Virus record (IMG/VR): IMGVR_UViG_3300045988_183451
Length of the DNA stretch: 64,000 bases
Source: a virus
Reading direction: 5' to 3' (one strand)
The notes under the pieces are model-generated. The model ran no database searches. It saw only the letters and a program-made list of their open reading frames with translations, and had not been told where the DNA came from. The position numbers and the translations under genes are program-made. Each line of letters begins with the position of its first letter. The stretch's first letter is position 1. Below, piece after piece: positions 21,431-59,024 of the stretch.

Positions 21431-22564
21431 ATGACTGAAAATTATACAAACCGTTCATTAGAAGAAATTTTAGAAAAAAACAAAAATGAACTTTTTAGTG
21501 AAATTGAGGAGTATTTAAATAATGAAAAGATAACTGATATTGAATGGGATGGAGTTCATTTATGGATAACAGAATTGGGGAAAGGCTGTTATAAAACAAA
21601 TAAAAAATTATCAAAAGAATTTATAAATAATTTAAGTATTAGATTAGCAAATATTATGAAAACAAATTTTAATACACAAAATCCAATACTTGAAGCGCAT
21701 ACTAAAGAATTAAGAATTTCAATTTTTCATGAAACAAGAAGTGAGGAAAAATCATTAACAATAAGAAAAATTCCAACAAATTTAAGGTACGACCACGATA
21801 TTCTTATAGCTAATGGAACAATCCCAGAAGAGCTGCTTAATTTATTAGAAAATTGTATAAAAGCGCATTGCAACATAGTAATAGGTGGAAGACCCCATGC
21901 AGGAAAAACAGAATTGCTTAAGTATCTATCTAATTTTATTCCAGCAAATGAAAAAGTTGTTACATTGGAAGATAATGCAGAAATTCATTATAGAGAAATA
22001 CACCCAGATAGAAAATGTGTTCCCTTTTTAGTAGATGATAAAGTAACATATTCAGATGCTATTAAGGCTTGTTTAAGACACAATGCTGACTGGTTATTAT
22101 TATCAGAATCTCGTGGTCCAGAAATTGTAGAGCTTATAAATGCATTAAGTACTGGTAGTTATTGTATGACAACTATTCACGTAGATGGTGCAAGAGACAT
22201 TCCAGATAGAATGTATAACATGCTTGGAAATAGTAGTGATTCTCCTAGATTTATAAATAATATTTATCGTTATATGGATGTAGGAGTAATGATAAAAGCA
22301 GATAAGAAAGAAAATAGAGTTGTTTCAGAAGTAGGTTTTTTTAATAGAACGAATATAAAAAAAGAGGATGGCTCATATACAACTGAAAACATTTATACCC
22401 CTTTTTATAATACGTTTGAAGGTATTAAAGATAAGGATACATTACCTATTAATATAAAAAGAGCTTTTAGTAGAGCAAAAATAGATAATCCTTTTGAAAG
22501 ACCAGAAACACCAAAAGATATCATTTTTGAAAGGAGTAATAAAACAAATGAAGCAGCAAATTGA
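21431..22564 (+). CDS. CpaF/TadA/VirB11-family secretion ATPase
   Basis: Walker A GGRPHAGKTELL, TLEDNAEIHY, Walker B/Asp-box DWLLLSESRGPE, His-box MTTIHVDGARD; about 377 aa. Confidence 0.7.
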   Translation: MTENYTNRSLEEILEKNKNELFSEIEEYLNNEKITDIEWDGVHLWITELGKGCYKTNKKLSKEFINNLSIRLANIMKTNFNTQNPILEAHTKELRISIFHETRSEEKSLTIRKIPTNLRYDHDILIANGTIPEELLNLLENCIKAHCNIVIGGRPHAGKTELLKYLSNFIPANEKVVTLEDNAEIHYREIHPDRKCVPFLVDDKVTYSDAIKACLRHNADWLLLSESRGPEIVELINALSTGSYCMTTIHVDGARDIPDRMYNMLGNSSDSPRFINNIYRYMDVGVMIKADKKENRVVSEVGFFNRTNIKKEDGSYTTENIYTPFYNTFEGIKDKDTLPINIKRAFSRAKIDNPFERPETPKDIIFERSNKTNEAAN

Positions 22565-25524: not shown

Positions 25525-26802
25525 ATGAATAATCAGTATTCTATAGAAGAAAAGAAAAACAGACATTTATTATTTGATACAAATAAGAACATATTTTTGA
25601 CTGGTCCTGGAGGAACAGGAAAATCAACATTACTAAATGAATTCATTGAAAATAATCCTGATACGATTGTTACAGCTCCAACTGGGTTAGCTGCTGTAAA
25701 TATTGGGGGAGTAACTACATTTAATGCTTTTAGTATACCTATTCCTTGTTTTGGAGCAACAACAAATAAGCTTACAGAAGCTAAATTAAAAAAGATTATA
25801 TTAGCTGATAATATAATTATTGATGAAATAAGTATGTGTAGGGTAGATGCTTTTGTTTATATTGTAAAGGTAATTAAAAAAGCTGAAAAGATAAAAGGTA
25901 AGAAGATAAGAATTATTGTTAGTGGGGATTTTTCACAACTTCCTCCTGTTATTACTGATGAAGATGCTAAAATGTTAAAAAAATTTGGTTTTCATAAATC
26001 TGGATTACCTTTTACCTGTAAAGAATGGGAGAACTGTCATTTTACTACTATTGAACTTACAGAGGTTAAAAGACAGGACAATCTTGAATTTATTGAAAAC
26101 TTACATAAGGCAAGATTAGCAGATAAGAAATGTATTACATATTTTAATCAATTTGTTTCTACTGATGTACCAGAAGATTGTATTCATATATGTGGAACTA
26201 ATGCAGAAAGCTATAGACTTAATAAAGAGTATTTAGATTCTTTAGAAGGGATGCCTTATGCATATCAGGCTATAAAAAAAGGAAGAACTACAGGAGCGTA
26301 TGTAGATGATATTATAGTCCTTAAAGATGGAGCTAATGTATATTTTACTGTTAATGATATATATGGCGGTGAGTATGTTAATGGAACTTTTGGAAAAATA
26401 CATAAGTGTTACAAAGACCATATAGAGGTAGATGTTGATGGAGAAGTTATAGATGTCACACCTCATAGATATTCAGTTTATAATTATAAAATTGTAAATG
26501 GAGCTTTAAAGAAAGAAGAAATAGGTTCAGTTTTACAAATGCCTTTAAAATTAGCTAAAGCGATTACTGTACATAAATCACAAGGAAAAACATTTGACAA
26601 AGAAGTGTTCACTCCTAAAATATTTGCAGCGGGACAGGCTTATGTTGCATTAAGCAGAGTAAGAAGTCCTGAAGGTTTGTTTTTAACAGAACCTTTACTT
26701 CCAGAACAATTAATGTCAGATAAAACAGTGCTAAAATTTTATAAAAACAACTATAAATTTGACATTGTTGGAAAAAAGAAAATAAAAGAGGAAGTAGGAT
26801 GA
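25525..26802 (+). CDS. PIF1/RecD-like SF1B DNA helicase
   Basis: Walker A FLTGPGGTGKSTLLNEF; IIIDEISM; KAITVHKSQGKTFD; YVALSRVRS. Confidence 0.7.
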   Translation: MNNQYSIEEKKNRHLLFDTNKNIFLTGPGGTGKSTLLNEFIENNPDTIVTAPTGLAAVNIGGVTTFNAFSIPIPCFGATTNKLTEAKLKKIILADNIIIDEISMCRVDAFVYIVKVIKKAEKIKGKKIRIIVSGDFSQLPPVITDEDAKMLKKFGFHKSGLPFTCKEWENCHFTTIELTEVKRQDNLEFIENLHKARLADKKCITYFNQFVSTDVPEDCIHICGTNAESYRLNKEYLDSLEGMPYAYQAIKKGRTTGAYVDDIIVLKDGANVYFTVNDIYGGEYVNGTFGKIHKCYKDHIEVDVDGEVIDVTPHRYSVYNYKIVNGALKKEEIGSVLQMPLKLAKAITVHKSQGKTFDKEVFTPKIFAAGQAYVALSRVRSPEGLFLTEPLLPEQLMSDKTVLKFYKNNYKFDIVGKKKIKEEVG

Positions 26803-27257
26803 TATATGAGATAGATTTAAAATACAATAAAGAAGCTTTAGAAGATAGATATTATAAATTTAAATATAAAATATTAAACGTAATTACAATCGAAACATTA
26901 ATATGGATGTTGATGATTATTTTTATTTTGTTTTTTATAAAAGCTCCATTATTTTATGTTATTTTTACAACTATATTATATTGTATTTGTGTTTTCGTAA
27001 GTTTGTCTATTTATTCTGAATATAAACAGGCCTACAAAGTAATAATGCTATTCATAAAACAAGAACACTCTTGTTATTATAATGGAAATTTATCATGTGT
27101 GTTTAACATGCAAATACGTTCAGATACATTTTTTCAAATAGGTACGATTGGATTTAACATAAAAATAGTTTATAAGAATATTAACACAGGGTTGTTAGAT
27201 TTGAACGAAGGCTTTTTATATTTGCCTATAAGTAATAATAGATATATAGTTATATAA
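26799..27257 (+). CDS. membrane protein
   Basis: ATGA overlap with the helicase stop; two TM helices. Confidence 0.45.
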   Translation: MIYEIDLKYNKEALEDRYYKFKYKILNVITIETLIWMLMIIFILFFIKAPLFYVIFTTILYCICVFVSLSIYSEYKQAYKVIMLFIKQEHSCYYNGNLSCVFNMQIRSDTFFQIGTIGFNIKIVYKNINTGLLDLNEGFLYLPISNNRYIVI

Positions 27258-27492
27258 GTAAAAAATAGATACAAGTAATAAAAACCACTATCTCCTAGTT
27301 GACAAGAAATAGTGGCTTTTATTATGCGCAAAAAGAAAAAAATATTAATAAAATCTGACTGTTTATTGCTAAAAAATATAACAGACAAAATTATTGAAAA
27401 TAACAGGCTTAATAAAATTTAATATATATTAAGCAAATTTTAGCGTATATTTGAAAATATGCTTTATCAAATAAATTTATTAAATAATAAGA

Positions 27493-27639
27493 TTACTTAA
27501 TTTTATTTTGAAGATACAACTTAATGTATTCTCTTGTTTGAGAAGTACAATCTAACTCATCAATAGACTTTTTACCTGTTTTTACATCTTCAATAGCTTG
27601 CTTGAAAAATTCATCTTTAATTAAATCACTCATATCCAT
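27493..27639 (-). CDS. small hypothetical protein (48 aa)
   Basis: Minus-strand ORF MDMSDLIKDEFFKQAIEDVKTGKKSIDELD... with SD ggagtaagaatt; the conserved motif lies upstream on the same strand. Confidence 0.35.
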   Translation of the reverse strand: MDMSDLIKDEFFKQAIEDVKTGKKSIDELDCTSQTREYIKLYLQNKIK

Positions 27640-27687
27640 AATTCTTACTCCTTTTTTACATATATATAAGTATAACTTTTATATAAT

Positions 27688-27697
27688 ATAATAGTGA
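27688..27697 (-). promoter_or_regulatory. conserved CACTATTAT motif on the minus strand
   Basis: Reverse complement reads aactCACTATTATattatat; 50 nt upstream of the minus-strand ORF 27493..27639. Confidence 0.4.
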
Positions 27698-27735
27698 GTT
27701 ATTATTTTTTTTAAGCATATAAATATATAAACTTT

Positions 27736-27957
27736 TTATAAAAACCTATCAAAAATAGCATTAGATTTAAACTTGCAATAATTAAGTATTCTTTTCTCCT
27801 TAGTATCACCATAATATTGTATATTAGGATTGAAATTTTTAATAAGAGCATATGTTTTATCTAATGAACCATTATTTTTAATCAGCTCATCATATAGCTC
27901 TTGATATTTGCTATAACCTTCTCCATTTATTTCTGAACTTGGTTTGTTTTGTAGCAT
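27736..27957 (-). CDS. hypothetical small protein
   Basis: Minus-strand ORF abutting the HigA-like gene. Confidence 0.4.
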   Translation of the reverse strand: MLQNKPSSEINGEGYSKYQELYDELIKNNGSLDKTYALIKNFNPNIQYYGDTKEKRILNYCKFKSNAIFDRFL

Positions 27958-27959
27958 TT

Positions 27960-28238
27960 TTATACCCTCTCATAGTTTATTTCTTCCATATTTTTATCAT
28001 AGACATATTGTAAATTTAACCAAAACATCCGACTTGTCTCTGTTGCATAAGCTAATCTAAAAGCATAAAATATATCTACATCTTTATCACCATTAATTAA
28101 ATCTGTAAGGCCTTTTAAATTAATCCCAGCTTTGCTACTAAATTGTTTTAATGTTAAGTTTGTTTCCTTTATATATTCTTCAATATAATATCCTGGATGA
28201 AATATACATTGTTCATTTACTTCTAAATATTTACTCAT
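27960..28238 (-). CDS. HigA/VapI-family XRE-type HTH protein (antitoxin-like)
   Basis: FHPGYYIEEYIKE...LTLKQFSSKAGINLKGLTDLINGDKDV...AFRLAYATETSRMFWLNLQYVYD matches the HigA pattern HPGE..E....LS...LA...G.S...L..I..GKR.IS...A..LA..FG.S..FWLNLQ..YDL. Confidence 0.55.
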   Translation of the reverse strand: MSKYLEVNEQCIFHPGYYIEEYIKETNLTLKQFSSKAGINLKGLTDLINGDKDVDIFYAFRLAYATETSRMFWLNLQYVYDKNMEEINYERV

Positions 28239-28794
28239 TATGAATTCCTTCCCTTTTATTAAAAAATGCTAACCCTATACAAATACTGTCAGCAATATCA
28301 TCACTAACATTTATATCATATATTTGTTTTACTAAATTTATAGCTCTATTTTTTAACTCTTTTCTTTTTAATTTAACCTTATTTTCTGAATTAGGTATAC
28401 CTACAGCTTTTCTCCAAGTAGTAGGTGAATAAAAACATATAGAACATCTCTTATGTTCTATTGAATAACTAAGAACTAAGCCTTGTATATGACATAGCTT
28501 TTTATAAGCATATCCATCTTTTCCCATATAGGTATCTTCAATAACTATCATTTTTGGCTTATATTTCTTAAGATAATTATTAATTCCTTTGATTATATCA
28601 ATGATACGATAATCCATATTTTTCTTTTTTATTTCAGCTTTTTCCTGCTTGGTCATATCTTTATTCACTTCATAGGGATTATCTGGTTTTATATATGTAT
28701 AATCTATAAGTTCTTTTGTGTTATAATCAAAGACAGCTATACCAGTATTAGTAGTACTGCCATCTATACTTATTAAATATTGTGTGTTGTTCAT
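28231..28794 (-). CDS. RuvC-like Holliday-junction resolvase (phage-type)
   Basis: N-terminal LISIDGSTTNTGIAVFD (RuvC motif I), MIVIEDTYMG (catalytic Glu), C-terminal DIADSICIGLAFF (D-x-A-D motif). Confidence 0.6.
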   Translation of the reverse strand: MNNTQYLISIDGSTTNTGIAVFDYNTKELIDYTYIKPDNPYEVNKDMTKQEKAEIKKKNMDYRIIDIIKGINNYLKKYKPKMIVIEDTYMGKDGYAYKKLCHIQGLVLSYSIEHKRCSICFYSPTTWRKAVGIPNSENKVKLKRKELKNRAINLVKQIYDINVSDDIADSICIGLAFFNKREGIHNE

Positions 28795-29000
28795 TTCCTA
28801 TATTTCCTTTTTATATTATTTATTACTAATTTATACAAAACCTCTTTTTAATATAAAAGAGTAATCTAGTAACTTTACATTCATAATTCTTAATTGATTT
28901 AAGTGGATTACATAACATTCAGTAGATGTTATATATTATAATCGAACACCCTTTCGGGTGCAAACATTGACTAAACTAGAAATCTTATCATTCTATCCTA

Positions 29001-29294
29001 TCAATCAAATAAGAAAATTTCTAAAGTATTAATAGAACTACCATTTATAGAAGCAATTTCTAGTTCTTCTAATGCAGCCTTTAAATTATCAGATGCCTTT
29101 TCACTAAAAAAGTCTTTAGTTCTAAAATCAATAGGGTTTTCTTTATTAAAGGTTTCTATCTCAATAATTCCTAATCTCTTATTAGAATTTATCCCAAATA
29201 AAATAATATGTGTTGGTGCTATTCTTGAATATGCTGAACCATACTTTTTAATTAACTTTTCTAAAAATACTATATAATCTTTTAATCTCATCAT
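29001..29294 (-). CDS. hypothetical protein
   Basis: First gene of the minus-strand block; the conserved motif lies upstream. Confidence 0.45.
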   Translation of the reverse strand: MMRLKDYIVFLEKLIKKYGSAYSRIAPTHIILFGINSNKRLGIIEIETFNKENPIDFRTKDFFSEKASDNLKAALEELEIASINGSSINTLEIFLFD

Positions 29295-29328
29295 TACGAT
29301 TATTCCTTTCTAATATGAACTATTAATT

Positions 29329-31216: not shown

Positions 31217-32791
31217 ATGGGTTTAGGTATTGGAATATTTGTAGTTATAGCAATAATAGTATTATTACTTATGAGTTACATAAAAGCACCTACAGATAAG
31301 GCGTTTATTGTATCAGGTTTAAGAAAAAAGCCTAAGTATGTAATAGGAAGGTCAGCATTTAGAATTCCGTTTTTACAGAGAGTAGATAAGCTTGAATTAA
31401 AGATGATAAGTGTTGATGTTAAAACAAAGGAATCAGTTCCTACAAATGAATATATCAATGTAAATATTGATTCAGCAGTTAAAATTAAGGTTGGATTATC
31501 TTCTGAAATGTTAGAAAAAGCCGCTAATAACTTCTTAAATAAGAATGATTCATATATTAGAGACCAGGTTGTTGATGTACTTGAAGGTAATGTAAGAGAG
31601 ATTATCGGACAGATGAAGCTTGAAGAAATTGTTCAGGATAGAAAACTGTTTGCTGAAAAAGTACAAGAAAATGCTGCTCCTGATATGGAAAAGATGGGTC
31701 TTGAAATAGTAAGTTTCAATGTTCAGAATGTTACTGATGAAGGTAATGTTATTGAAAACTTAGGTATTGATAGAGTGGTAAGTATTTCTAAATCAGCACA
31801 GATTTCAAGAGCAGAAAGTGAAAGAGATATTGCTGTTGCTAAAGCTAATGCTGAAAAACAGGCTAATGATGCAAGAATTGAAGCAGAAACAGCTATTGCA
31901 GAAAGAAATAACGAACTTGAAATTAAGAAGCAGGAGTTAAAGAAGGCTGCTGATATTAGAAAGGCTGAAGCTGATGCTGCTTATGAAATTCAGGAACAGG
32001 AACAGCGAAAGACTATTGAAATCACAACTGCTAACGCTAATATTGCAAAGCAGGAAAAGGAAATCGAACTTAGAGAAAAGGAAATTGCTGTTAAGGAAAA
32101 GACACTTGATGCTGAAATCCGTAAGCAGGCAGAAGCAGAAAAATATGCTGCACAGCAAAAGGCAGATGCAGACCTTTACTTAAGACAGAAAGAAGCCGAA
32201 GCAAAACAGTTTGAGATTGTTAAGCAGGCTGAAGCTAAGAAGTCACAGGCAGAGGCAGATAGATTTGCTAAAGAACAGGAAGCCGAAGCTATTAAGGCAC
32301 AGGGATTAGCAGAAGCAGAAAGCATTAAGGCTAAAGGTATCGCTGATGCGGAAAGTATTAAAGCAAAGGGTATGGCTGAAGCTGAAGCTATGGAGAAGAA
32401 AGCAAATGCTTATGAGAAGTACGGTAAAGCTGCTATGACAGATATGATTATTAAGATACTTCCAGAAATGGCAGGACAGATTGCTAAACCTCTTGAAGCT
32501 ATTGATAAGGTTACTATTATTGATGGTGGTAACGGAGAAACAGGTGTAGGTTCATTTAGCGGTAATGTTCCTTCAGTACTTGCAAAGACTATTGAATCTG
32601 TTAAGGAAACAACAGGATTTGACCTTACAGAGGTTATGAAAGCTAATACATATGATGCTAAGACAACTAAGAATGTTAATTTTACAGGACTTCCTAATGA
32701 AGTCAATGTAGATGCTTCTAACACTTCTGATATAGATGATGTATTTGAAAATACTGATTTTGATAAGGCTATGAAAAAGCTTTCTGATTAA
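31217..32791 (+). CDS. flotillin-like SPFH/band-7 protein (FloT/YuaG-like)
   Basis: N-terminal TM then SPFH domain (KAFIVSGLRKKPKYVIGRSAFRIPFLQRVDKLELKMISVDVKTKE), long Ala/Glu-rich coiled coil with EA repeats, about 524 aa. Confidence 0.7.
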   Translation: MGLGIGIFVVIAIIVLLLMSYIKAPTDKAFIVSGLRKKPKYVIGRSAFRIPFLQRVDKLELKMISVDVKTKESVPTNEYINVNIDSAVKIKVGLSSEMLEKAANNFLNKNDSYIRDQVVDVLEGNVREIIGQMKLEEIVQDRKLFAEKVQENAAPDMEKMGLEIVSFNVQNVTDEGNVIENLGIDRVVSISKSAQISRAESERDIAVAKANAEKQANDARIEAETAIAERNNELEIKKQELKKAADIRKAEADAAYEIQEQEQRKTIEITTANANIAKQEKEIELREKEIAVKEKTLDAEIRKQAEAEKYAAQQKADADLYLRQKEAEAKQFEIVKQAEAKKSQAEADRFAKEQEAEAIKAQGLAEAESIKAKGIADAESIKAKGMAEAEAMEKKANAYEKYGKAAMTDMIIKILPEMAGQIAKPLEAIDKVTIIDGGNGETGVGSFSGNVPSVLAKTIESVKETTGFDLTEVMKANTYDAKTTKNVNFTGLPNEVNVDASNTSDIDDVFENTDFDKAMKKLSD

Positions 32792-37308: not shown

Positions 37309-38580
37309 ATGAAAGGAAAATTTATGAAAGATTATATATTAATGCATAAGAATATTGAAGTAGCATTAATGAAGTTAGATGAAAATGATGCTAATTCAAA
37401 ACCATCAAAAATATATCTGAATGAAAAAGAACAAGACCATATTCCTATTGGAGCAAGGATGAATAATATTAAATTCATTAACTGGTGGCAGGATAGAGCA
37501 ATACCTAAAACAAGACAGGGAGCAAAAACAGCCCTACAAAGATTAGGATATAGTTCAGTTACTAATGCTATGATAAATAATCTAGCCTTAAGTCTTAATG
37601 ATTGCTATTGGATTAAGCCCAGATATTCAGAACTTACCTGGGAAGAAGTTAATTTATTTTCAAATAATTTTGTTGATGCTTTTGGAGAACTTACCTTTAA
37701 CCAAACAGAAGATTTAGATTTGAGAAGATATACTAAGTTTTTAAGTGCTGTTTCACAAGGAGAGGTTCAAAAAAAATGGTGTATAGATAAGAATAATCAT
37801 AGGTATCTTGTAAAAGGTAATTATGGCAATTCATATCAACAAAGTATTAATGAGGTGTTTGCAAGTAATTTTCATAAAGACCAGGATTTTAATAATTATA
37901 CTCCTTATTATTTTTGTAATATTGAACTTACAAATAGTAGAAAAGGATTAGGATGTTTTTCTTATAATTTTTGTAATGAAAATATTGAGAGTATTTCAGC
38001 TTGGGAATTATTACAAACTAGAAAGATTAAACAAAATGAAAGCTTATATTATCCTTTCAAAGATATATGTTTATCACTAGGAATCAAAGAAGATGATTTT
38101 GATAATTTTATTGATTATGAGATTTGTAGTGATTTTTTATTTACTAATCTTGATAGACATATGAATAATATCAGTATTTTAAGAAATCCAGATACATTAG
38201 AAATATTAGGGTTTGCTCCTATATATGATACTGGAAATAGTATGTTTTATAATGTTCCTACTAATGAATTAAATAATGTTAAGTTAGGACAAGATAAAAC
38301 ACATTCATTTATAACGTCAAAAGAAAATAGATTACTAAAGTATGTTAGAAATAAAGAGATTATAAACATAGACAAAATTAATGCTGATTTCTCAATATAC
38401 GAAAAGGATATTTATGATAATGATTTAAGGATTTCTTTATTAAAAGAAAAATTTGAAAGAAAAGTAGATTTATTGTTGTCTTTTCAAAAAGGTAATAATA
38501 TATGGGAAGATAATTATAATAAATCATATATACAAAAATTTAATAATCTAATAGGAACTGATGAAATTGATTTAGATTAA
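37309..38580 (+). CDS. HipA-like Ser/Thr kinase (toxin candidate)
   Basis: Catalytic loop FLFTNLDRHMNNISIL (D-x-H-x-x-N) and APIYDTGNSMFY (HipA YD motif); alternative start ATG 37324. Confidence 0.6.
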   Translation: MKGKFMKDYILMHKNIEVALMKLDENDANSKPSKIYLNEKEQDHIPIGARMNNIKFINWWQDRAIPKTRQGAKTALQRLGYSSVTNAMINNLALSLNDCYWIKPRYSELTWEEVNLFSNNFVDAFGELTFNQTEDLDLRRYTKFLSAVSQGEVQKKWCIDKNNHRYLVKGNYGNSYQQSINEVFASNFHKDQDFNNYTPYYFCNIELTNSRKGLGCFSYNFCNENIESISAWELLQTRKIKQNESLYYPFKDICLSLGIKEDDFDNFIDYEICSDFLFTNLDRHMNNISILRNPDTLEILGFAPIYDTGNSMFYNVPTNELNNVKLGQDKTHSFITSKENRLLKYVRNKEIINIDKINADFSIYEKDIYDNDLRISLLKEKFERKVDLLLSFQKGNNIWEDNYNKSYIQKFNNLIGTDEIDLD

Positions 38581-51418: not shown

Positions 51419-51658
51419 ATGAAAAATAAAAATGGCATTAAAATTAAATTCAATAAACACAATAAATATGGAAATGAACCTTGTTGTTGTGAAAAAGGAT
51501 ATTTAACTAAGTTTGGTTCTTCAACATTATTTTGTTTCATATGTAATTTATTTTGTTGTAGGAAATTATTTAAGACAGAAAGCTTTTGTAAAAAATATGG
51601 ATGGAATAAAACTTGTAGAACTTGTCAACAAAAAGGTGATTATAAGTTACTTGAATAA
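51419..51658 (+). CDS. small Cys-rich protein (10 Cys in 79 aa)
   Basis: EPCCCEKGY...LFCFICNLFCCRKL...CRTCQQKG. Confidence 0.45.
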   Translation: MKNKNGIKIKFNKHNKYGNEPCCCEKGYLTKFGSSTLFCFICNLFCCRKLFKTESFCKKYGWNKTCRTCQQKGDYKLLE

Positions 51659-51883
51659 AAGTGATAGATATATAGATGCCCTTATTTGAAAAATAAACAT
51701 AATAAGGGTGTCTTTTTTTTGATTTATAACAAAATACAGAAATATATGTGTTTTATAAATAAAAATCATTATTTTTTTAGTATATATATGCATACTTTTT
51801 TGTTGTATTAATCCCATTATTTTTATAGTTATTTATAAAAGTGAAAATGATTTTTTTGTTAAGGGAGAGTATTTATAAATATT

Positions 51884-51912
51884 TATTACACAAAAGGATA
51901 TTCGGTGTAATA
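51884..51912. repeat. perfect 8-bp inverted repeat TATTACAC/GTGTAATA with 14-nt spacer inside a 600-bp AT-rich non-coding region; arm sequence GTGTAATAAA recurs near 52122
   Basis: Read directly: atttattacacaaaaggatattcggtgtaataaaa. Confidence 0.35.
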
Positions 51913-52221
51913 AAAATACAAACAGCAAAATTCATTTTTTCTATAAGCAAAATCTTCTACCATCTATTTAAAACAATACAAATAATATAATTTTTCTTTT
52001 ATGCTTCTTTATATTGATTATATCAATTTCCCCCAATATCCTCATAATTATGTATTAAAAAATCTAATTGTAAAAACTAAAAGGTTAAGACAGTAGTTTA
52101 TACATTTTTCTACTCCCTTTGTGTAATAAATATTATTAAAACTCTATCCACCTTTAATCAAAAATTTTCTAAAAACTTTCAAAAATTCTTATTTTTTATA
52201 CCTCTTTATTTTTATTTTACC

Positions 52222-52231
52222 ACACTATTAT
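52222..52231 (+). promoter_or_regulatory. conserved ACACTATTAT promoter-like motif
   Basis: ttttaccACACTATTATtttataacc. Confidence 0.45.
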
Positions 52232-52274
52232 TTTATAACCAAAAATTGTGAACAAAAGAAAGAAGGAAATTCAT

Positions 52275-52421
52275 ATGAGTATTAATACTAATCTAAATAA
52301 TTTACCTATAAATGAGCTTAAAGATTTCCTTAAAGCTAATGGGTTAAAGGTTGTTTTAGAAGACGGAAAGATTACTGAGACAGTTGAAGAAAAGGAATTA
52401 GAAGAAGAAAAAGAAAGATAG
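52275..52421 (+). CDS. small K/E-rich protein (48 aa)
   Basis: SD aaagaaggaaattcatATG; ends TAG; below the track cutoff. Confidence 0.35.
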   Translation: MSINTNLNNLPINELKDFLKANGLKVVLEDGKITETVEEKELEEEKER

Positions 52422-52453
52422 ATGAAAAGCACTAAAGAAAGGGGTTTTGTTTT

Positions 52454-55219
52454 ATGGATAATACAAATAATAACGTAATTGAGTGTATGGTTCATCTTGA
52501 AAGATTTAATGAAAAACCAAATAAGTTTCAGATAGGTTCTATTCAGAATAATATGCATCCAGAAACTATTCAAATTGAATATCTTGCAGAATCTCTTGTT
52601 AATGGTGCTTCTTTTAAGCCAGGAGTATTGATAGGTGGACGTTCTAAAGATAACTGGGTAAGACAACAGCTTTTCGGATTAGATTTTGATGATGGAACTC
52701 CAATAGAAATCTCTTATAGAAAAGCTATTGATTTAGGATTAACACCTATTTTTATGTATACTACATTTAGTCATACATCAGAACATCATAAGTATAGAAT
52801 GATTTTTTGTGCAGATGAAGTAATTACAGATGGAAATAAAAGAGACAAGCTTCAAGCAACTCTTATGGGAATAATGGGAGATATAGACAAGGTTTGTTTT
52901 AATAGAGATAGATTATTTTTTGGTGGAAAAGGTAAAGAAGTACTTTTTCCTAGTTTTAATGCAAGAGTTAATGCTAACGAAGTAATTAATAAATATTGGA
53001 AAGATGAATATGCTGCTTTTATAAGTGGAAATACATCTTCAAGCAAACAGAAAAGAACAAAAAAAGTAAGTACTAAAAATACTTTAACAAGTATAAATAC
53101 ATCAAATGTAATTAATTATGAACCATTAATAGATGAGGAAATAAAAGCAGCTTATCCTGTAAAATGTGTTTCTATGTATAATTTAAAATGCTTAAAAGAA
53201 TATTTTGACTATAATGTATGGATTGAGGGGTCTCATAGAGAAAGATTTATATTCATATATTATAACTGTTCTAAAATTATAAATGGTTCGGTACAGGCTT
53301 TTAAAGAATGCTTAGAATACAATAGGGAGATGGATGAGCCATTATCAATGTATGAATTAAAATCAGCAATAATGCATACAGATGAGCATATTGAGAATAA
53401 AGATTGGTATAGACTAGCATTACATGACAATGGCAGTTTTATTTTTAAGCCAGAAACTATTATAAGTGAAAAATGGTTAGATATAAACGAAGATATAGCA
53501 AAAGCTTGTGGATTTCTTGACAATAAAATAAATAAAGAGAATATACTTAAGAATAAAGAAAGAGACAGACAGAGAGATAAAATGATAGCAGAATTATATT
53601 TATCTGGATTAGGTTATCAGAATGTATCTAAGGCATTACCGGAAGAATATAAATGTTGTAAGAATACTGTTAAAAGAACAGTAGAAAGACTAGGAATTAA
53701 AGACAGAAATATATCTTTTAATAATATACAATTTGAAGAAAAGGAAAAGTATAAGCGTGTAGGGGTGCAAACATTGACTAAACTAGAAAAAAGTTCAAGC
53801 TTCCCTATCTTCTCTAACATAACTTCAGTAGATGATAAAAATGAAATGAATATATTAGATAAAGAAATTATTAAAGAAGAGAATATTAATAGAATTAACG
53901 CAGGTAGGTATTTAGACAAGACTTGTGAAGAATTGGCTAACAAGGCTAAAGAAGCTAATAAGAAGTCTAATGACAATGAACAAGATATAGCTATAAATAC
54001 AATATTAGCAAATCCTAATATAAATTATTGTTTATACGGTAAAGCTGGTACTGGCAAGAGTTTTTGTATTAATACTTTATTACAAAGGTTATCAGAAGAA
54101 GAAAGAAATAGAACAGTTGTAATAGCTCCAACAGGTATAGCAGCTTCTAATATTACATATGCAACAGCAACAACTATACATTCATTATTTGAGTTACATA
54201 CATTTATTTACAGTAAAGATAGTTCTATTAAGATACCTAACAAGTTATTAGGAGTAAGAAGAATAATTATAGATGAAATAGGAATGGTTAGGAAAGATAT
54301 ATTTACACAATTAATAAGAGTTGTTAAGGCTGTTGAAGAAAAGACAGGAAATAAGATACAACTCATCTTTTCAGGTGACTATGGTCAGATTTCTCCAGTT
54401 GTTACTAAGAAAGATAAGGCAATAATAGATATGTATTATGAAGAAAGCAAGAATAAGTATTTTTGTTTTGATAGTCCATTATGGAACGAACTTAATCTTC
54501 AGAATATTGTTTTAAGAAACAATCATAGACATAATAACAATAATAACGATGAATTACAGGAAGAATTTATCAATGCTTGTGATGATATTAAGTTTGGATT
54601 ATTAAACAGAATATCTTGGTTAAACAACAATATAGCTCATACAGCTATTAATGATGCAATATATCTTTGTGCTAATAATAAGCAGGTAGATGATTATAAT
54701 TCACTTTATACTAAGGATTTTATAGGAACACAAGTATACAAAGCTAAGATTGAATTAGGTGAAAGATATAATGAAGGATTTAATCTTAACAATGTTAAAC
54801 TGCCTGTAAAAGCAGAATTAAATTTAGCAGTAGGCATGCGTGTAATGACACTTGTTAATACAAAGAGCTATAAGAATGGAAGCTTAGGTACTATCACAGC
54901 ATTATTAGACAACAAGGTAAAAGTTAAGTTAGATAGTACTGGAAGAGAAGTAACAGTAAGAGCTGCTAAATTTGATATTGAAAGCTTAGAGGAAAGCAAT
55001 ATGTATCAGATACCAATAGCAATAGCATATGCAATAACAGTAAATAAAGCACAAGGATTAACACTTGATAAGGCTAATATCGTTCCAGGATTTTTTGCAC
55101 CAGGACAGTTATATACAGCTATTACAAGAATAAAAAATGTACATAACATAAGTATAATTGGTGACTTAAAAGAAAGTGATTTAGTTGTAGATTCAAGAGC
55201 ATTAAGTCTAATAGCTTAA
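52454..55219 (+). CDS. replication protein: N-terminal AEP-type primase-polymerase (PrimPol) domain, central HTH, C-terminal PIF1/RecD-like SF1B helicase
   Basis: N-terminal FGLDFDDGTPIE (DxD) and FSHTSEHHKYRMIF (sxH..H) AEP motifs; HTH IAELYLSGLGYQNVSKALPE; C-terminal LYGKAGTGKSFCINTL, IIIDEIGMVRKD, YAITVNKAQGLTLD, YTAITRIKN; SD aaagaaaggggttttgttttATG. Confidence 0.65.
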   Translation: MDNTNNNVIECMVHLERFNEKPNKFQIGSIQNNMHPETIQIEYLAESLVNGASFKPGVLIGGRSKDNWVRQQLFGLDFDDGTPIEISYRKAIDLGLTPIFMYTTFSHTSEHHKYRMIFCADEVITDGNKRDKLQATLMGIMGDIDKVCFNRDRLFFGGKGKEVLFPSFNARVNANEVINKYWKDEYAAFISGNTSSSKQKRTKKVSTKNTLTSINTSNVINYEPLIDEEIKAAYPVKCVSMYNLKCLKEYFDYNVWIEGSHRERFIFIYYNCSKIINGSVQAFKECLEYNREMDEPLSMYELKSAIMHTDEHIENKDWYRLALHDNGSFIFKPETIISEKWLDINEDIAKACGFLDNKINKENILKNKERDRQRDKMIAELYLSGLGYQNVSKALPEEYKCCKNTVKRTVERLGIKDRNISFNNIQFEEKEKYKRVGVQTLTKLEKSSSFPIFSNITSVDDKNEMNILDKEIIKEENINRINAGRYLDKTCEELANKAKEANKKSNDNEQDIAINTILANPNINYCLYGKAGTGKSFCINTLLQRLSEEERNRTVVIAPTGIAASNITYATATTIHSLFELHTFIYSKDSSIKIPNKLLGVRRIIIDEIGMVRKDIFTQLIRVVKAVEEKTGNKIQLIFSGDYGQISPVVTKKDKAIIDMYYEESKNKYFCFDSPLWNELNLQNIVLRNNHRHNNNNNDELQEEFINACDDIKFGLLNRISWLNNNIAHTAINDAIYLCANNKQVDDYNSLYTKDFIGTQVYKAKIELGERYNEGFNLNNVKLPVKAELNLAVGMRVMTLVNTKSYKNGSLGTITALLDNKVKVKLDSTGREVTVRAAKFDIESLEESNMYQIPIAIAYAITVNKAQGLTLDKANIVPGFFAPGQLYTAITRIKNVHNISIIGDLKESDLVVDSRALSLIA

Positions 55220-55247: not shown

Positions 55248-55700
55248 ATGGATAAAAGAAGAATAATTACAGGACATTATCAGGAAAATATGTTTGGAGA
55301 TTTAATGGATAGAGAAGACTATTTTCATAAGTTGCCTAATATATCTAATAGGAGACAATTAGAAGAACCCAAAACAAAAGTATTTTATGTAAAAGAAGAA
55401 AGTAATTGGGAAAATGAAAGTCAGGAGCTTTTAGATGAAAAAGGAAATTCGATATATGAGGTTTATAACCTTACAGATTGTCCTGAAGATGCAACAATAC
55501 ATAGAGGTTTATTTAGTGCTTATGATTATATAGAAGCTGTAAGATATGGGATACAGTTAGCAAGGCAAGGAGTTATGGAGATTAAAGTAGAAGATTATAA
55601 TAAAGATAAAACTGATTTTGTAGAGGAAGCAAATACAGTAACACCAGATAATAATGAAATAGATGATAATGAACTAGAAGATTTGTTTTCATTAGATTAG
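55248..55700 (+). CDS. acidic hypothetical protein
   Basis: SD aataaggagataaaattttATG; ends TAG. Confidence 0.5.
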   Translation: MDKRRIITGHYQENMFGDLMDREDYFHKLPNISNRRQLEEPKTKVFYVKEESNWENESQELLDEKGNSIYEVYNLTDCPEDATIHRGLFSAYDYIEAVRYGIQLARQGVMEIKVEDYNKDKTDFVEEANTVTPDNNEIDDNELEDLFSLD

Positions 55701-58151: not shown

Positions 58152-59024
58152 ATGGATAATACAGCGTTAGCACAAAGAATGAAAAGATATTATGAAGAAG
58201 TACCCAAGACAAGATTAATAAGGAAAATACCTGTTTGTATAAGACTTGATGGAAAAGCATTTCATACATTTTTAAAAGGATTTCAGAAGCCATTTGATGA
58301 TATATTTATTAAGACAATGCAGGATACTATGAAATATTTGTGTCAGAACATACAAGGATGTGTATTGGGATATACTCAGTCAGATGAAATCAGTCTAATA
58401 CTTATAGATTATCAAAAACTTACAACAAGTGCTTGGTTTGATTATGAGGTTCAGAAAATATGTAGTGTTTCAGCTAGTATGGCAACAATGGCATTTAATA
58501 GAGCTTTTGAAAAGAATGTAGAAGCTGAAAGTCATGTATTTACTGATGAGTGGTTAGATAATGGAGAATATAATCCTAATTATAAGAGCAAAGAATTAGA
58601 AGACTTATGGTTAACACATAAAAAGGCTTTAGAAAAAGGAGCAATGTTTGATAGTAGATGTTTTAATATACCAAAGGAAGATGTTGCTAATTTAATATTC
58701 TGGAGACAGTTTGATGCTAGTAAGAATTCAGTACAAATGGTAGGGCAGGCTAATTTTTCACATAAAGAATTGCAGAATAAATCTAGTAATGATATTCAAG
58801 ATATGCTTATGATTCAGAAAGGTATTAACTGGAATGATTTACCGACTTATCAGAAGAGAGGAAGTTGTTGTGTAAAAAAGGAAATTGAAAATAAATCAAC
58901 TGGATATAATGGTGAAATCAGAGCTATTGAATATAGAACAGAATGGATTATAGATAAAAATATTCCTATATTCAAAGGAGAAAATAGAAGATATATAAAT
59001 GAATTAATACTTTTTAAGGAGTAA
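58152..59024 (+). CDS. Thg1-like protein (tRNA-His guanylyltransferase family, 3'-5' nucleotidyltransferase)
   Basis: CIRLDGKAFHTF (compare Thg1 VVRLDGRNFHRF), GYTQSDEISLIL (compare AYGQSDEYSFVF), FDSRCFNIP...IFWRQFDASKNS (compare FDGRVVVYP...LSWRQADCHINN), PTYQKRGSCC (compare PMYRKGTVL). Confidence 0.7.
   Translation: MDNTALAQRMKRYYEEVPKTRLIRKIPVCIRLDGKAFHTFLKGFQKPFDDIFIKTMQDTMKYLCQNIQGCVLGYTQSDEISLILIDYQKLTTSAWFDYEVQKICSVSASMATMAFNRAFEKNVEAESHVFTDEWLDNGEYNPNYKSKELEDLWLTHKKALEKGAMFDSRCFNIPKEDVANLIFWRQFDASKNSVQMVGQANFSHKELQNKSSNDIQDMLMIQKGINWNDLPTYQKRGSCCVKKEIENKSTGYNGEIRAIEYRTEWIIDKNIPIFKGENRRYINELILFKE

What the first reader, a model, noticed from the sequence alone, without database searches (positions are those of the whole stretch)
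51660..55219. PrimPol(AEP)-HTH-PIF1 helicase fusion preceded by a 600-bp AT-rich region with a perfect inverted repeat (putative origin)
The 921-aa protein has AEP primase-polymerase motifs (DxD in FGLDFDDGT, sxH..H in FSHTSEHHKYRMIF) and a central HTH. Its C-terminus carries a complete PIF1/RecD-like SF1B helicase (Walker A, DExx, QG, YTAITR). PrimPol domains are usually fused to SF3/D5-type helicases, so a PrimPol-SF1B fusion is uncommon. Immediately upstream is the longest non-coding stretch of the window. It contains a perfect 8-bp inverted repeat (TATTACAC n14 GTGTAATA, 51884-51912) and a second GTGTAATAAA at about 52122, consistent with an initiator-binding origin. A second stand-alone PIF1-like helicase sits at 25525..26802.
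Basis: partly seen in the sequence, partly recalled or inferred. Interest (0 to 1): 0.6.

Follow-up and report, generated by a model that had tools for sequence, protein, structure and literature searches.

The report
Primase–PIF1 helicase replication protein with conserved upstream repeats
One 921-residue protein of a large gut-metagenome phage-like element combines an unannotated archaeal/eukaryotic-type primase domain, a DNA-binding domain and a PIF1-type helicase, and it lies next to conserved inverted DNA repeats, so it looks like a self-contained replication module of an uncommon design.

Summary
ORF 52454..55219 encodes a four-part protein:
- a helical PriX/PriCT-like domain
- a LuxR/GerE-type HTH
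- an intact PIF1/Dda SF1B helicase

The primase domain defines a large unannotated family (1,714 clusters). Only 11 of the top 150 cluster representatives carry PIF1. Full-length relatives sit on about 15-kb plasmid-like contigs beside ParA, resolvase, relaxase and coupling-protein genes, the position of a Rep gene.

The real cis-signal is a 27-nt long-range inverted repeat (0 of 60 shuffles). Its 12-mer core, TTGTGTAATAAA, occurs only twice in the 64 kb, in divergent orientation.

These are probably protein-binding sites. Whether they act as an origin, an operator or both is unresolved, and GC skew shows no minimum here.

Verdict: a new variant of the known primase-helicase Rep theme, of moderate interest.

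The parts
51674..51720 (+). Intrinsic-terminator-like hairpin (13-bp stem, 14-nt loop) followed by a T-run. It probably ends the upstream operon (79-aa ORF, stop at 51658).
   Evidence: RNA fold gives -15 kcal/mol, z = -3.0, matched by 3 of 200 shuffles. The consensus scan missed it because its loop limit is 8 nt.
51659..52274 (.). 616-nt non-coding region with 20.1% GC. It is conserved (93% mean column identity) in the close relatives L001 and L002.
   Evidence: No Rfam match and no tRNA.
51872..51898 (-). Left arm of the long inverted repeat. It contains the conserved 12-mer TTGTGTAATAAA on the minus strand at 51882-51893.
   Evidence: It is 100% conserved in L001 and L002, and the core is conserved in L003.
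51905..51917 (+). Third, partial motif copy (GTGTAATAAAAAT). With the left arm it forms a 10-bp palindrome or hairpin with a 13-nt spacer. It is specific to this lineage.
   Evidence: ssDNA fold z = -4.2 in the window and -3.0 in L002, and absent in L003. The 10-bp stem occurs in 13% of shuffles.
52114..52140 (+). Right arm of the long inverted repeat. The 12-mer is on the plus strand at 52119-52130, 155 nt upstream of the small ORF.
   Evidence: A 21-nt stretch is identical in L003. The distance to the small-ORF start is 155-170 nt in all four elements.
52275..52421 (+). Conserved 48-aa ORF (MSINTNLNNLPINELKDFLKANGLKVVLEDGKITETVEEKELEEEKER) with a good Shine-Dalgarno sequence. It may be a small DNA-binding or regulatory protein. 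Its function is unknown.
   Evidence: Gene callers call it in L001, L002 and L005. It is 100%, 94% and 42% conserved in L001, L002 and L003. It has a weak sub-threshold SAP-motif hit (E 0.0037).
52469..53029 (+). AEP (primase-polymerase) catalytic domain, residues 6-192. Motif I is D77-x-D79, motif II is S106-H107, motif III is D145. R115 and R153 are conserved.
53105..53518 (+). All-helical domain, residues about 218-355, with the invariant block W-x-E-G-x-H-R-E-R-F-I-F. It is PriX/PriCT-like. It aligns with the CHC2 zinc-ribbon region of the 625-aa relatives, but the Cys ligands are lost.
53519..53710 (+). Helix-turn-helix DNA-binding domain, residues about 356-419, of the LuxR/GerE/sigma-70 region 4 type.
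53921..55219 (+). PIF1/Dda/RecD2-type SF1B helicase, residues about 490-921, with all motifs intact. A disordered linker (residues 434-486) precedes it.
   Evidence: Pfam PIF1 2.3e-23 and PHROG 325 Dda-like 7e-63. NCBIfam RecD2 1.9e-24, far below its cutoff. Linker pLDDT below 50.
55248..55700 (+). Syntenic 150-aa ORF directly downstream, with an acidic C-terminal tail (…DDNELEDLFSLD). It is conserved next to the fusion gene in L001, L002 and L003. Its function is unknown.
   Evidence: PHROG 19569, unknown function, 1.2e-7.

Best explanation
The locus is a compact replication module of a mobile element. It consists of a terminator-insulated, AT-rich cis region with a divergent pair of conserved 13-mers, then a small ORF, then a single-chain initiator-primase-helicase (Rep).

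Proposed mechanism:
1. The LuxR/GerE-type HTH of the 921-aa protein recognises the repeated TTGTGTAATAAAT sites. The 48-aa protein may do this as well or instead.
2. The PIF1-type SF1B motor, which by family knowledge moves 5'->3', unwinds the DNA.
3. The AEP domain makes the primer, helped by the adjacent PriX/PriCT-like helical domain.
4. A host or element-encoded polymerase extends it.

Shown here: the domain identities, intact catalytic motifs, the reality, uniqueness and conservation of the repeats, and the Rep-like genomic position of the homologues.

Inferred only: that the HTH binds these repeats, that the region fires as an origin, and all enzymatic activities.
For: **Protein**
- 60 viral structures match at E<=1e-3, annotated as primase, PriCT, VirE or RepB.
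- D77, D79 and D145 are invariant across 140 family representatives.
- Fusion partners of the same domain elsewhere are classic primase companions: DnaG-type Zn ribbon, D5_N with DUF5906, DUF3987, PriCT_1 and SF2 helicases.
- The HTH is supported.
- The PIF1 helicase is intact.

**Context**
- Full-length homologues sit on about 15-kb contigs beside ParA, resolvase, Mob_Pre or relaxase, and T4CP. No other Rep family is called there.
- In the 858-aa subfamily, about 480 nt of upstream non-coding DNA travels with the gene.
- In L006 the homologous gene is preceded by at least 4 iteron-like direct repeats.

**Cis element**
- 27-nt inverted repeat, reached by 0 of 60 shuffles.
- The 12-mer is unique to this region within the 64 kb.
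- The same divergent pair plus small ORF is conserved in L001, L002 and L003 (51% protein identity), while the flanks diverge.
- Both arms keep the same sequence rather than covarying, which points to a protein-binding site and not an RNA structure.

**Precedent**
- ColE2 Rep and the RepE/RepS family are AEP-PriCT-HTH initiators that bind their origin (PMC5862659).
Against: - No binding or replication data exist.
- GC skew stays positive on both sides of 52 kb, with no cumulative-skew minimum. All neighbouring genes are on the + strand, so there is no sign of a bidirectional origin in the window.
- Two or three inverted sites upstream of a small-ORF/rep pair is the classic layout of an autoregulatory operator. 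In ColE2, pAMbeta1 and pRN1 the origin lies downstream of rep (PMC4234260, and my own knowledge).
- Arm spacing varies from 173 to 241 nt, and the local hairpin is not conserved.
- Other relatives (L008-L012) lack this motif. That is expected if specificity co-evolves, but it is not proof.
- The replicon is about 291 kb with phage-type genes, and it may use a different main origin.
- The middle-domain PriCT assignment is not decisive.
Confidence: 0.55

Rival explanations
1. The divergent repeats are an operator, not an origin. The 48-aa protein and/or the Rep HTH binds them to autoregulate the small-ORF/rep transcription unit (copy-number control), and the true origin lies elsewhere, for example downstream of or inside rep.
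For: - The right arm keeps a constant distance (155-170 nt) to the small-ORF start in four elements, while arm-to-arm spacing varies.
- The small ORF co-occurs with the repeats.
- pRN1 has an orf56 repressor/orf904 operon whose upstream region holds the promoter, with the origin downstream (PMC4234260 abstract).
- There is no skew inflection at the site.
Against: - No sigma-70-type plus-strand promoter is detectable near the arms.
- The left arm points towards a terminator, not a gene.
- Arms 170-240 nt apart are unusual for a simple operator.
- In many plasmids the operator and origin overlap, so the two roles are not exclusive.
Confidence: 0.3
2. The protein is a fork-associated primase-helicase of a huge phage, a single-chain analogue of herpesvirus UL5/UL52. 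It is not a site-specific initiator, and the upstream repeats are unrelated to its action.
For: - The window carries phage-type genes: endolysin, RuvC-like resolvase, Thg1 (3e-85) and a dNMP nucleotidase. It lies on a 291-kb contig.
- SF1 replicative helicases are known only with AEP primases (PMC4889955).
Against: - An HTH sits between the primase and the helicase.
- Homologues are the only replication-type gene on small ParA/Mob plasmid-like contigs.
- The cis repeats are conserved together with the gene.
- Monomeric SF1B helicases are atypical as main replicative helicases.
Confidence: 0.2
3. The protein is a conjugation-associated or repair primase-helicase (recipient-strand priming, like the plasmid Sog/TraC primases) and not a vegetative replication protein.
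For: - In L009 the homologue lies directly between the relaxase and the T4 coupling protein.
- The helicase part weakly resembles the TraA_Ti relaxase-helicase C-terminus.
- PrimPols can act in repair (PMC11724360).
Against: - The window locus has no relaxase or T4SS neighbours.
- In L010 and L008 the gene sits by ParA or resolvase with a long upstream non-coding region.
- The HTH plus conserved repeats argue for site-specific action.
Confidence: 0.1
4. The long inverted repeat is a relic of a miniature transposable element (terminal inverted repeats flanking about 215 nt), or a chance feature of AT-rich DNA.
For: - 27-nt (up to about 36 nt with gaps) terminal-type arms flank a short non-coding core.
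- TnpB and HNH mobile genes occur nearby in relatives.
Against: - 0 of 60 shuffles reach 27 nt.
- There are no other copies in the 64 kb.
- The same position and orientation are kept in a relative with 51% protein identity. The arm cores are conserved while the interior has diverged and changed length.
- No target-site duplication is seen.
Confidence: 0.05

Closest known systems
[quoted passage not shown]
   Same: The domain order is the same: AEP primase, helical PriCT-type domain, then HTH. They are plasmid- or phage-borne, and the HTH with PriCT recognises and opens the origin (PMC5862659). Five of the 150 family representatives have exactly this helicase-less layout.
   Different: Those families lack any helicase, whereas this protein adds a complete PIF1 SF1B helicase. 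There is no BLAST-level similarity of the N-terminal 500 aa to any PLSDB plasmid. Pfam PriCT_1 does not hit.
pRN1 ORF904, NrS-1 polymerase, and D5/P4-alpha-type primase-helicase fusions
   Same: A single polypeptide has an N-terminal primase, a C-terminal helicase and a DNA-binding domain, and serves as the replicase or initiator of a mobile element. pRN1 also has a small upstream regulator gene in the same operon (PMC4234260).
   Different: Their helicases are hexameric SF3, SF4 or SF6 enzymes. Here the helicase is a PIF1/Dda-type SF1B enzyme, which normally acts as a monomer or dimer.
Herpesvirus helicase-primase UL5 (Pif1-like SF1B) / UL52 (AEP) / UL8
   Same: It is the only well-established replicative pairing of an AEP primase with a Pif1-related SF1 helicase (PMC4889955, PMC8187027).
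   Different: In herpesviruses these are separate subunits plus the accessory UL8. UL52 has a zinc finger, and origin binding is done by another protein (UL9). Here everything is one chain, it includes an HTH, and the zinc ligands are lost.
RSF1010 RepB' primase with ssiA/ssiB
   Different: RepB' works with a separate RepA helicase and RepC initiator. The ssi sites are hairpins, whereas here hairpin potential is not conserved.
Helitron RepHel (HUH Rep fused to a Pif1 helicase)
   Same: It is an initiator domain fused to a Pif1-family SF1B helicase, where relatives use SF3 (PMC11296320).
   Different: The initiator is an HUH nickase driving rolling-circle transposition, not an AEP primase, and the elements are eukaryotic.

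Membership tests
AEP (archaeo-eukaryotic primase / PrimPol) superfamily | Motif I DhD/E (metal-binding acidic pair) | tested here: met
   D77-F-D79. D77 is kept in 137/140 and D79 in 133/140 (plus 3 E) family representatives.
AEP (archaeo-eukaryotic primase / PrimPol) superfamily | Motif II sxH | tested here: met
   S106-H107 are present in the query. Across the family S is kept in 127/140 but H in only 85/140 (S, Y, D or N otherwise). This variability is documented for PrimPol-PV1 families (PMC5862659).
AEP (archaeo-eukaryotic primase / PrimPol) superfamily | Motif III hD/E (third acidic residue) | tested here: met
   D145 is kept in 139/140. D152 of the query's NRDR is variable, so D145 is the likely catalytic residue. 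This assignment rests on conservation, not on structure superposition.
AEP (archaeo-eukaryotic primase / PrimPol) superfamily | AEP catalytic fold | tested here: met
AEP (archaeo-eukaryotic primase / PrimPol) superfamily | Match to a curated AEP sequence model (Pfam Prim-Pol, VirE_N, RepB_primase and others; NCBIfam) | tested here: not met
   No Pfam hit even at E<=10 on the isolated domain. Nothing in NCBIfam. No PDB sequence hit. Only PHROG 25531, 'unknown function'.
AEP (archaeo-eukaryotic primase / PrimPol) superfamily | Primase and/or polymerase activity | not testable with these tools
   Needs biochemistry.
PriCT-1/PriCT-2 (primase C-terminal helical domain; PriX/PriL-CTD relatives) | Sequence match to PF08708 or PF08707 | tested here: not met
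   There are no hits for the query or for 4 homologous middle domains at E<=10.
PriCT-1/PriCT-2 (primase C-terminal helical domain; PriX/PriL-CTD relatives) | Helical bundle directly after the AEP domain, with a PriX/PriCT-like fold | tested here: inconclusive
PIF1/RecD2/Dda SF1B helicases | Pfam PF05970 above the gathering threshold | tested here: met
   83.4 bits against 25.9, residues 513-715. PHROG 325 Dda-like 7e-63 over residues 420-916.
PIF1/RecD2/Dda SF1B helicases | Intact Walker A, Walker B and helicase motifs III, V and VI | tested here: met
   GKAGTGKS (529-536), DE (607-608), GDYGQ, VNKAQG and YTAITR, read from the sequence.
PIF1/RecD2/Dda SF1B helicases | 5'->3' unwinding polarity | not testable with these tools
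   Inferred from family knowledge only.
ColE2 Rep / RepE-RepS type initiators | AEP-PriCT-HTH order with no helicase domain | tested here: not met
   The order AEP-helical-HTH is met, but a full PIF1 helicase follows. There is no sequence similarity to PLSDB plasmid Reps. It therefore works like these initiators but is not a member.
Plasmid-type replication origin (Rep-binding repeats plus an AT-rich unwinding region) | Repeated, conserved binding-site-like sequences next to rep | tested here: met
   There are iteron-like repeats in L006.
Plasmid-type replication origin (Rep-binding repeats plus an AT-rich unwinding region) | Strand-compositional (GC-skew) switch or gene-orientation switch at the site | tested here: not met
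   Skew is +0.28 and +0.16 on either side. Cumulative skew rises monotonically, and all neighbouring genes are on the + strand. Only 64 of about 291 kb were available.
Plasmid-type replication origin (Rep-binding repeats plus an AT-rich unwinding region) | Supports autonomous replication and is bound by Rep | not testable with these tools
   Needs cloning and EMSA.

The most novel reading that the evidence does not exclude
This is a one-polypeptide origin-recognising helicase-primase. It would be a bacterial or phage counterpart of the herpesvirus UL5/UL52 pairing (AEP primase with a Pif1-type SF1B helicase) that also carries its own origin-binding HTH. It would act as a portable plasmid-type replicon, embedded here in a roughly 291-kb phage-like genome, which would then be a phage-plasmid or a huge phage with a plasmid-style origin. 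Its primase domain belongs to a large AEP family (more than 1,700 clusters) that current annotation resources do not recognise.
Probability: 0.3. Interest if true: 0.7.

Novelty: new variant of a known kind. Interest (0 to 1): 0.55.

Why it matters
**For the replication field**
- Primase-helicase fusions that replicate mobile elements are well known, but they use hexameric SF3, SF4 or SF6 helicases. A covalent AEP-PIF1 fusion with a built-in HTH would show that a monomeric-type SF1B motor can take that role in bacteria.
- It would also give a minimal, single-chain model for coupling an AEP primase to a Pif1-like helicase. So far that coupling is studied only in the three-subunit herpesvirus complex, which is a drug target.

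**For annotation**
- The N-terminal domain defines a widespread primase family (1,714 clusters at 50% identity), common in Lachnospiraceae mobile elements.
- Pfam, NCBIfam and PHROG functional labels all miss it. These replication proteins are therefore currently annotated as 'hypothetical' or 'AAA ATPase/helicase', and replicons that depend on them go unrecognised.

**For experiments**
- The conserved divergent 13-mers give a concrete candidate binding site to test.

Tried and rejected
- **Sequence searches of the N-terminal 500 aa.** Pfam, NCBIfam and PDB sequences gave nothing.
- **Megablast of the locus.** No match against phages or plasmids.
- **tblastn of the whole protein.** It hit only the helicase part.
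- **Rfam scan of the non-coding region.** Nothing, so no known RNA element.
- **Sigma-70 promoter scan.** No plus-strand site, so the promoter is unresolved.
- **RSF1010-like ssi hairpins.** Rejected as a conserved feature. Only the left arm in the window, L001 and L002 folds (z about -4). L003 and the right arms do not.
- **RNA-structure reading of the long inverted repeat.** Rejected, because both arms keep the same sequence across relatives and do not covary.
- **Genome-wide promoter motif.** Rejected, because the exact 12-mer occurs only twice in the 64 kb.
- **Competing non-coding or origin candidate at 27.3-28.0 kb.** Rejected as non-coding, because it holds small minus-strand genes (XRE-type HTH, RuvC-like).
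- **Are the alternative N-terminal domains of P0010 and P0012 also AEP?** hhalign gave probability 0.3%, so they are left unassigned.
- **IMG/VR search with the middle-domain alignment.** No relatives found. The single IMG/VR hit to the 20-mer (L007) encodes no homologue and is probably chance.
- **afdb50 fold library.** It was not available.
- **Iyer et al. 2005.** It could not be read.

Full report
**1. The observation**

ORF 52454..55219 (+) encodes the 921-aa protein as described. All the quoted motifs are present. FGLDFDDGT is residues 74-82, FSHTSEHHKYRMIF is residues 105-118, Walker A (GKAGTGKS) is residues 529-536, and Walker B is D607-E608. GDYGQ, VNKAQG and YTAITR are also there.

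The short inverted repeat is at 51884-51891 and 51905-51912. Its spacer is 13 nt, not 14. A further GTGTAATAAA is at 52121-52130. The stand-alone PIF1/Dda-like helicase at 25525..26802 is real and only 27% identical to the fused helicase.

The non-coding stretch is 51659-52274, 616 nt and 20.1% GC against 25.4% overall. A nominally longer gap at 27.3-28.0 kb is filled by small minus-strand genes.

**2. The protein, domain by domain**

Sequence libraries recognise only the helicase.
- Pfam PIF1 gives 2.3e-23 over residues 513-715, and PHROG 325 'Dda-like helicase' gives 7e-63.
- NCBIfam RecD2 and TraA_Ti score far below their cutoffs.
- Nothing in Pfam, NCBIfam or PDB sequences matches residues 1-500, even at E<=10 on isolated segments.

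An AlphaFold2 model built from 33 homologues gives two confident domains, joined and followed by disordered linkers. Residues 6-192 are alpha/beta, and residues 218-433 are all helical.

Foldseek against viral structures gives 60 hits at E<=1e-3, the best at 5e-16. They are annotated as primase, Primase C-terminal 1/2, VirE, RepB primase or NrS-1-like. The alignments span 320-350 columns, covering the AEP domain and the helical domain that follows.

Across 140 family representatives the catalytic residues are essentially invariant: D77 137/140, D79 133/140, D145 139/140, R115 137/140 and R153 133/140. The motif II histidine (H107) is present in the query but in only 85/140. That fits the variable motif II reported for PrimPol-PV1 families (PMC5862659). 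The motif III aspartate is D145, not the D152 of the query's NRDR.

A profile of the domain matches LuxR/GerE/sigma-70 region 4 DNA-binding domains at E 1e-3 to 5e-3 over protein residues about 356-419.

The architecture is therefore: AEP, PriX/PriCT-like helical domain, HTH, linker, PIF1 SF1B helicase.

**3. The family**

An exhaustive search with residues 1-210 found 1,714 representative clusters at E<=1e-3 and 626 at E<=1e-10. The domain is nearly always N-terminal. In 54 diverse members the partners were as follows.
- DnaG-type CHC2 Zn ribbon: 13.
- PIF1: 8.
- D5_N with DUF5906 (SF3): 4.
- SF2 domains (ResIII/DEAD): 4-9.
- DUF3987: 1.
- PriCT_1: 1.

These are the usual companions of primases, which independently supports the assignment.

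Hundreds of about 625-aa Lachnospiraceae 'hypothetical proteins' share 55-64% identity with residues 5-190 only. One lies in a chromosomal island with HU-like, Mrr and HNH genes, next to core genes. In those proteins the region after the primase holds a CHC2 zinc ribbon. The fusion family aligns there but has lost the cysteines.

Among the top 150 representatives, 11 carry a PIF1-type helicase, and all 11 have the middle domain. Five more have primase plus middle domain with no helicase. The PIF1 fusion thus looks like a derived branch of an AEP-helical-HTH initiator family.

P0010 and P0012 share the middle domain, HTH and helicase, but have a different N-terminal domain with no detectable homology.

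**4. Genomic context**

The window belongs to a 291,454-bp metagenomic contig. It has about 25% GC, with nearly all genes on one strand. Phage-type genes are present: an endolysin-like amidase, a RuvC-like resolvase, a Thg1 (PHROG 3e-85), a deoxyribonucleotidase and radical-SAM enzymes. The element is most likely a huge phage or a phage-plasmid, but this is not settled.

Close relatives (L001, L002) keep the same gene order.

More distant full-length homologues (36-42% identity) lie on about 15-kb contigs in Rep-like positions.
- L010: after ParA and a small ORF, and before resolvase, a coupling protein and Mob_Pre.
- L009: between a relaxase and a coupling protein.
- L008 and L012: after a 1.1-kb non-coding gap, followed by a resolvase in L008.

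No other replication-protein family is called on those contigs.

In the 858-aa subfamily, about 480 nt upstream of the gene is conserved between otherwise unrelated contigs, and homology stops abruptly beyond it. No record among 72,556 plasmids or 50,697 phages matches more than the helicase part.

**5. The cis region**

73% of shuffles of the region have one, and the window averages 1.5 per kb. The 10-bp version occurs in 13% of shuffles.

The significant feature is a long-range inverted repeat with arms at 51872-51898 and 52114-52140, 27 nt and 24/27 complementary. The longest repeat in 60 dinucleotide shuffles was 20 nt. The core 12-mer TTGTGTAATAAA occurs exactly twice in the 64 kb, both here, once on each strand.

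The arms are 100% conserved in L001 and L002, where nearby sequence varies. In L003, whose protein is 51% identical, the same divergent pair is present and 21 nt of the right arm are identical. The surrounding AT-rich DNA there is otherwise unalignable.

Arm spacing varies from 173 to 241 nt. The right arm stays 155-170 nt upstream of the small ORF. That ORF is itself conserved at 100%, 94% and 42%.

Both arms keep the same sequence and do not covary, so the element reads as a protein-binding site and not an RNA helix. Rfam finds nothing.

A hairpin plus U-run at 51674-51720 (z -3.0) probably terminates the upstream operon and insulates the region.

In L006 the homologous gene is preceded by at least four iteron-like direct repeats of a different sequence. 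That is what one would expect if binding specificity co-evolves with the protein.

**6. Mechanism**

The best-supported reading is a portable replication module.
1. The HTH recognises the repeated 13-mers (inferred).
2. The PIF1 motor unwinds the DNA (5'->3' polarity inferred from the family).
3. The AEP domain primes, helped by its helical partner domain (inferred from fold and motifs).
4. Another polymerase elongates.

[quoted passage not shown] ColE2 Rep even opens DNA without an NTPase (PMC5862659). The present protein adds a dedicated helicase.

**7. What argues against the origin reading**

- GC skew is positive on both sides of 52 kb, and cumulative skew has no minimum in the window.
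- The layout of repeats upstream of a small ORF plus rep pair is equally typical of an autoregulatory operator. In pRN1 the upstream region holds the promoter and the origin is downstream (PMC4234260).
- The local hairpin is not conserved.

I therefore hold 'functional protein-binding repeats linked to this Rep' with fair confidence. Origin versus operator is unresolved, and the two roles are not mutually exclusive.

**8. Comparison with what is known, and novelty**

- Surveys of bacterial AEPs list fusions to SF3 (D5), SF4 (RepA/DnaB), SF6 (MCM/DUF3987), VirE, DUF927 and SF2 helicases. The terms PIF1, RecD and UvrD do not occur in the main survey (PMC5862659).
- Helitrons show an analogous swap of SF3 for Pif1 on an HUH initiator (PMC11296320).
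- My literature searches found no description of a bacterial AEP-PIF1 fusion. The library is incomplete and Iyer et al. 2005 could not be read, so prior mention cannot be excluded.

I rate the finding a new variant of a known kind. The theme is the familiar primase-helicase Rep, with an unusual helicase class and a primase family that current annotation resources miss.

Noticed in passing
P0010 (L006:10001-12853) and P0012: These relatives share the middle domain, HTH and PIF1 helicase with the query, but carry a different N-terminal domain of about 290 aa (motifs YIDID, SGRGLALYY, DRxSRxPxTxN). It shows no detectable homology to the query's AEP domain (hhalign probability 0.3%). It looks like an N-terminal domain swap on a common chassis, and the domain's identity is unassigned.
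   Followed up: partly
L006:9570-9996: At least four direct, iteron-like copies of GTTTGAGACCCTTGTT lie in the 570-nt gap upstream of the P0010 gene on a 343-kb Hadza gut contig. The gap sits between divergently transcribed genes.
   Followed up: partly
P0013-P0120; L014:10001-11878: A very abundant family of about 625-aa Lachnospiraceae 'hypothetical proteins' (one cluster has 839 members) consists of this unannotated AEP domain plus a DnaG-type CHC2 zinc ribbon. One lies in a chromosomal island with two HU-like genes, Mrr and HNH. The fusion family aligns over the zinc-ribbon region but has lost the cysteine ligands.
   Followed up: partly
window 55248-55700: A 150-aa ORF directly downstream of the fusion gene is syntenic in L001, L002 and L003. 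It ends in an acidic tail (…DDNELEDLFSLD) reminiscent of the C-terminal tails of phage single-strand-binding proteins. It matches only PHROG 19569 (unknown function).
   Followed up: no
window 27170-29300 (minus strand): This is the only minus-strand cassette and the only GC-skew reversal in the window. It holds an XRE-type HTH (27960-28238), a RuvC-like Holliday-junction resolvase (28231-28794; PHROG 159, 2.6e-23) and small ORFs. It lies immediately after the stand-alone PIF1/Dda-like helicase (25525-26802).
   Followed up: partly
window 58152-59024; L001, L002, L003 and L005 flanks: The element and its relatives encode an RNA-repair and modification set: Thg1 tRNA-His guanylyltransferase (PHROG 3e-85), RtcB, an RLIG1-like ligase, a Tpt1-like PTS_2-RNA protein, ADP-ribosylglycohydrolase and several radical-SAM enzymes. 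A TnpB (OrfB_IS605) gene starts near the window's 3' end (about 63.3 kb) and runs off it. This fits a huge phage.
   Followed up: no
L002:3392-4633: L002 has a 413-aa HNH/RRXRR endonuclease gene inserted between the 197-aa and 79-aa ORFs just upstream of the replication module. It is absent from the window and from L001, so it looks like a mobile homing-type insertion.
   Followed up: no
L003:6679-7016: In L003 the small ORF and the fusion gene are separated by about 340 nt that starts with a terminator-like hairpin plus T-run. In the window the gap is 32 nt. The two genes may therefore not always be co-transcribed.
   Followed up: no
window 21431-22564, 31217-32791, 37309-38580: Unexpected cargo for a phage-like element: a T2SSE/VirB11-type secretion ATPase, a flotillin/SPFH protein and a HipA-C-like kinase domain protein. 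Several very large ORFs (1592, 732 and 601 aa) have no family match at all.
   Followed up: no
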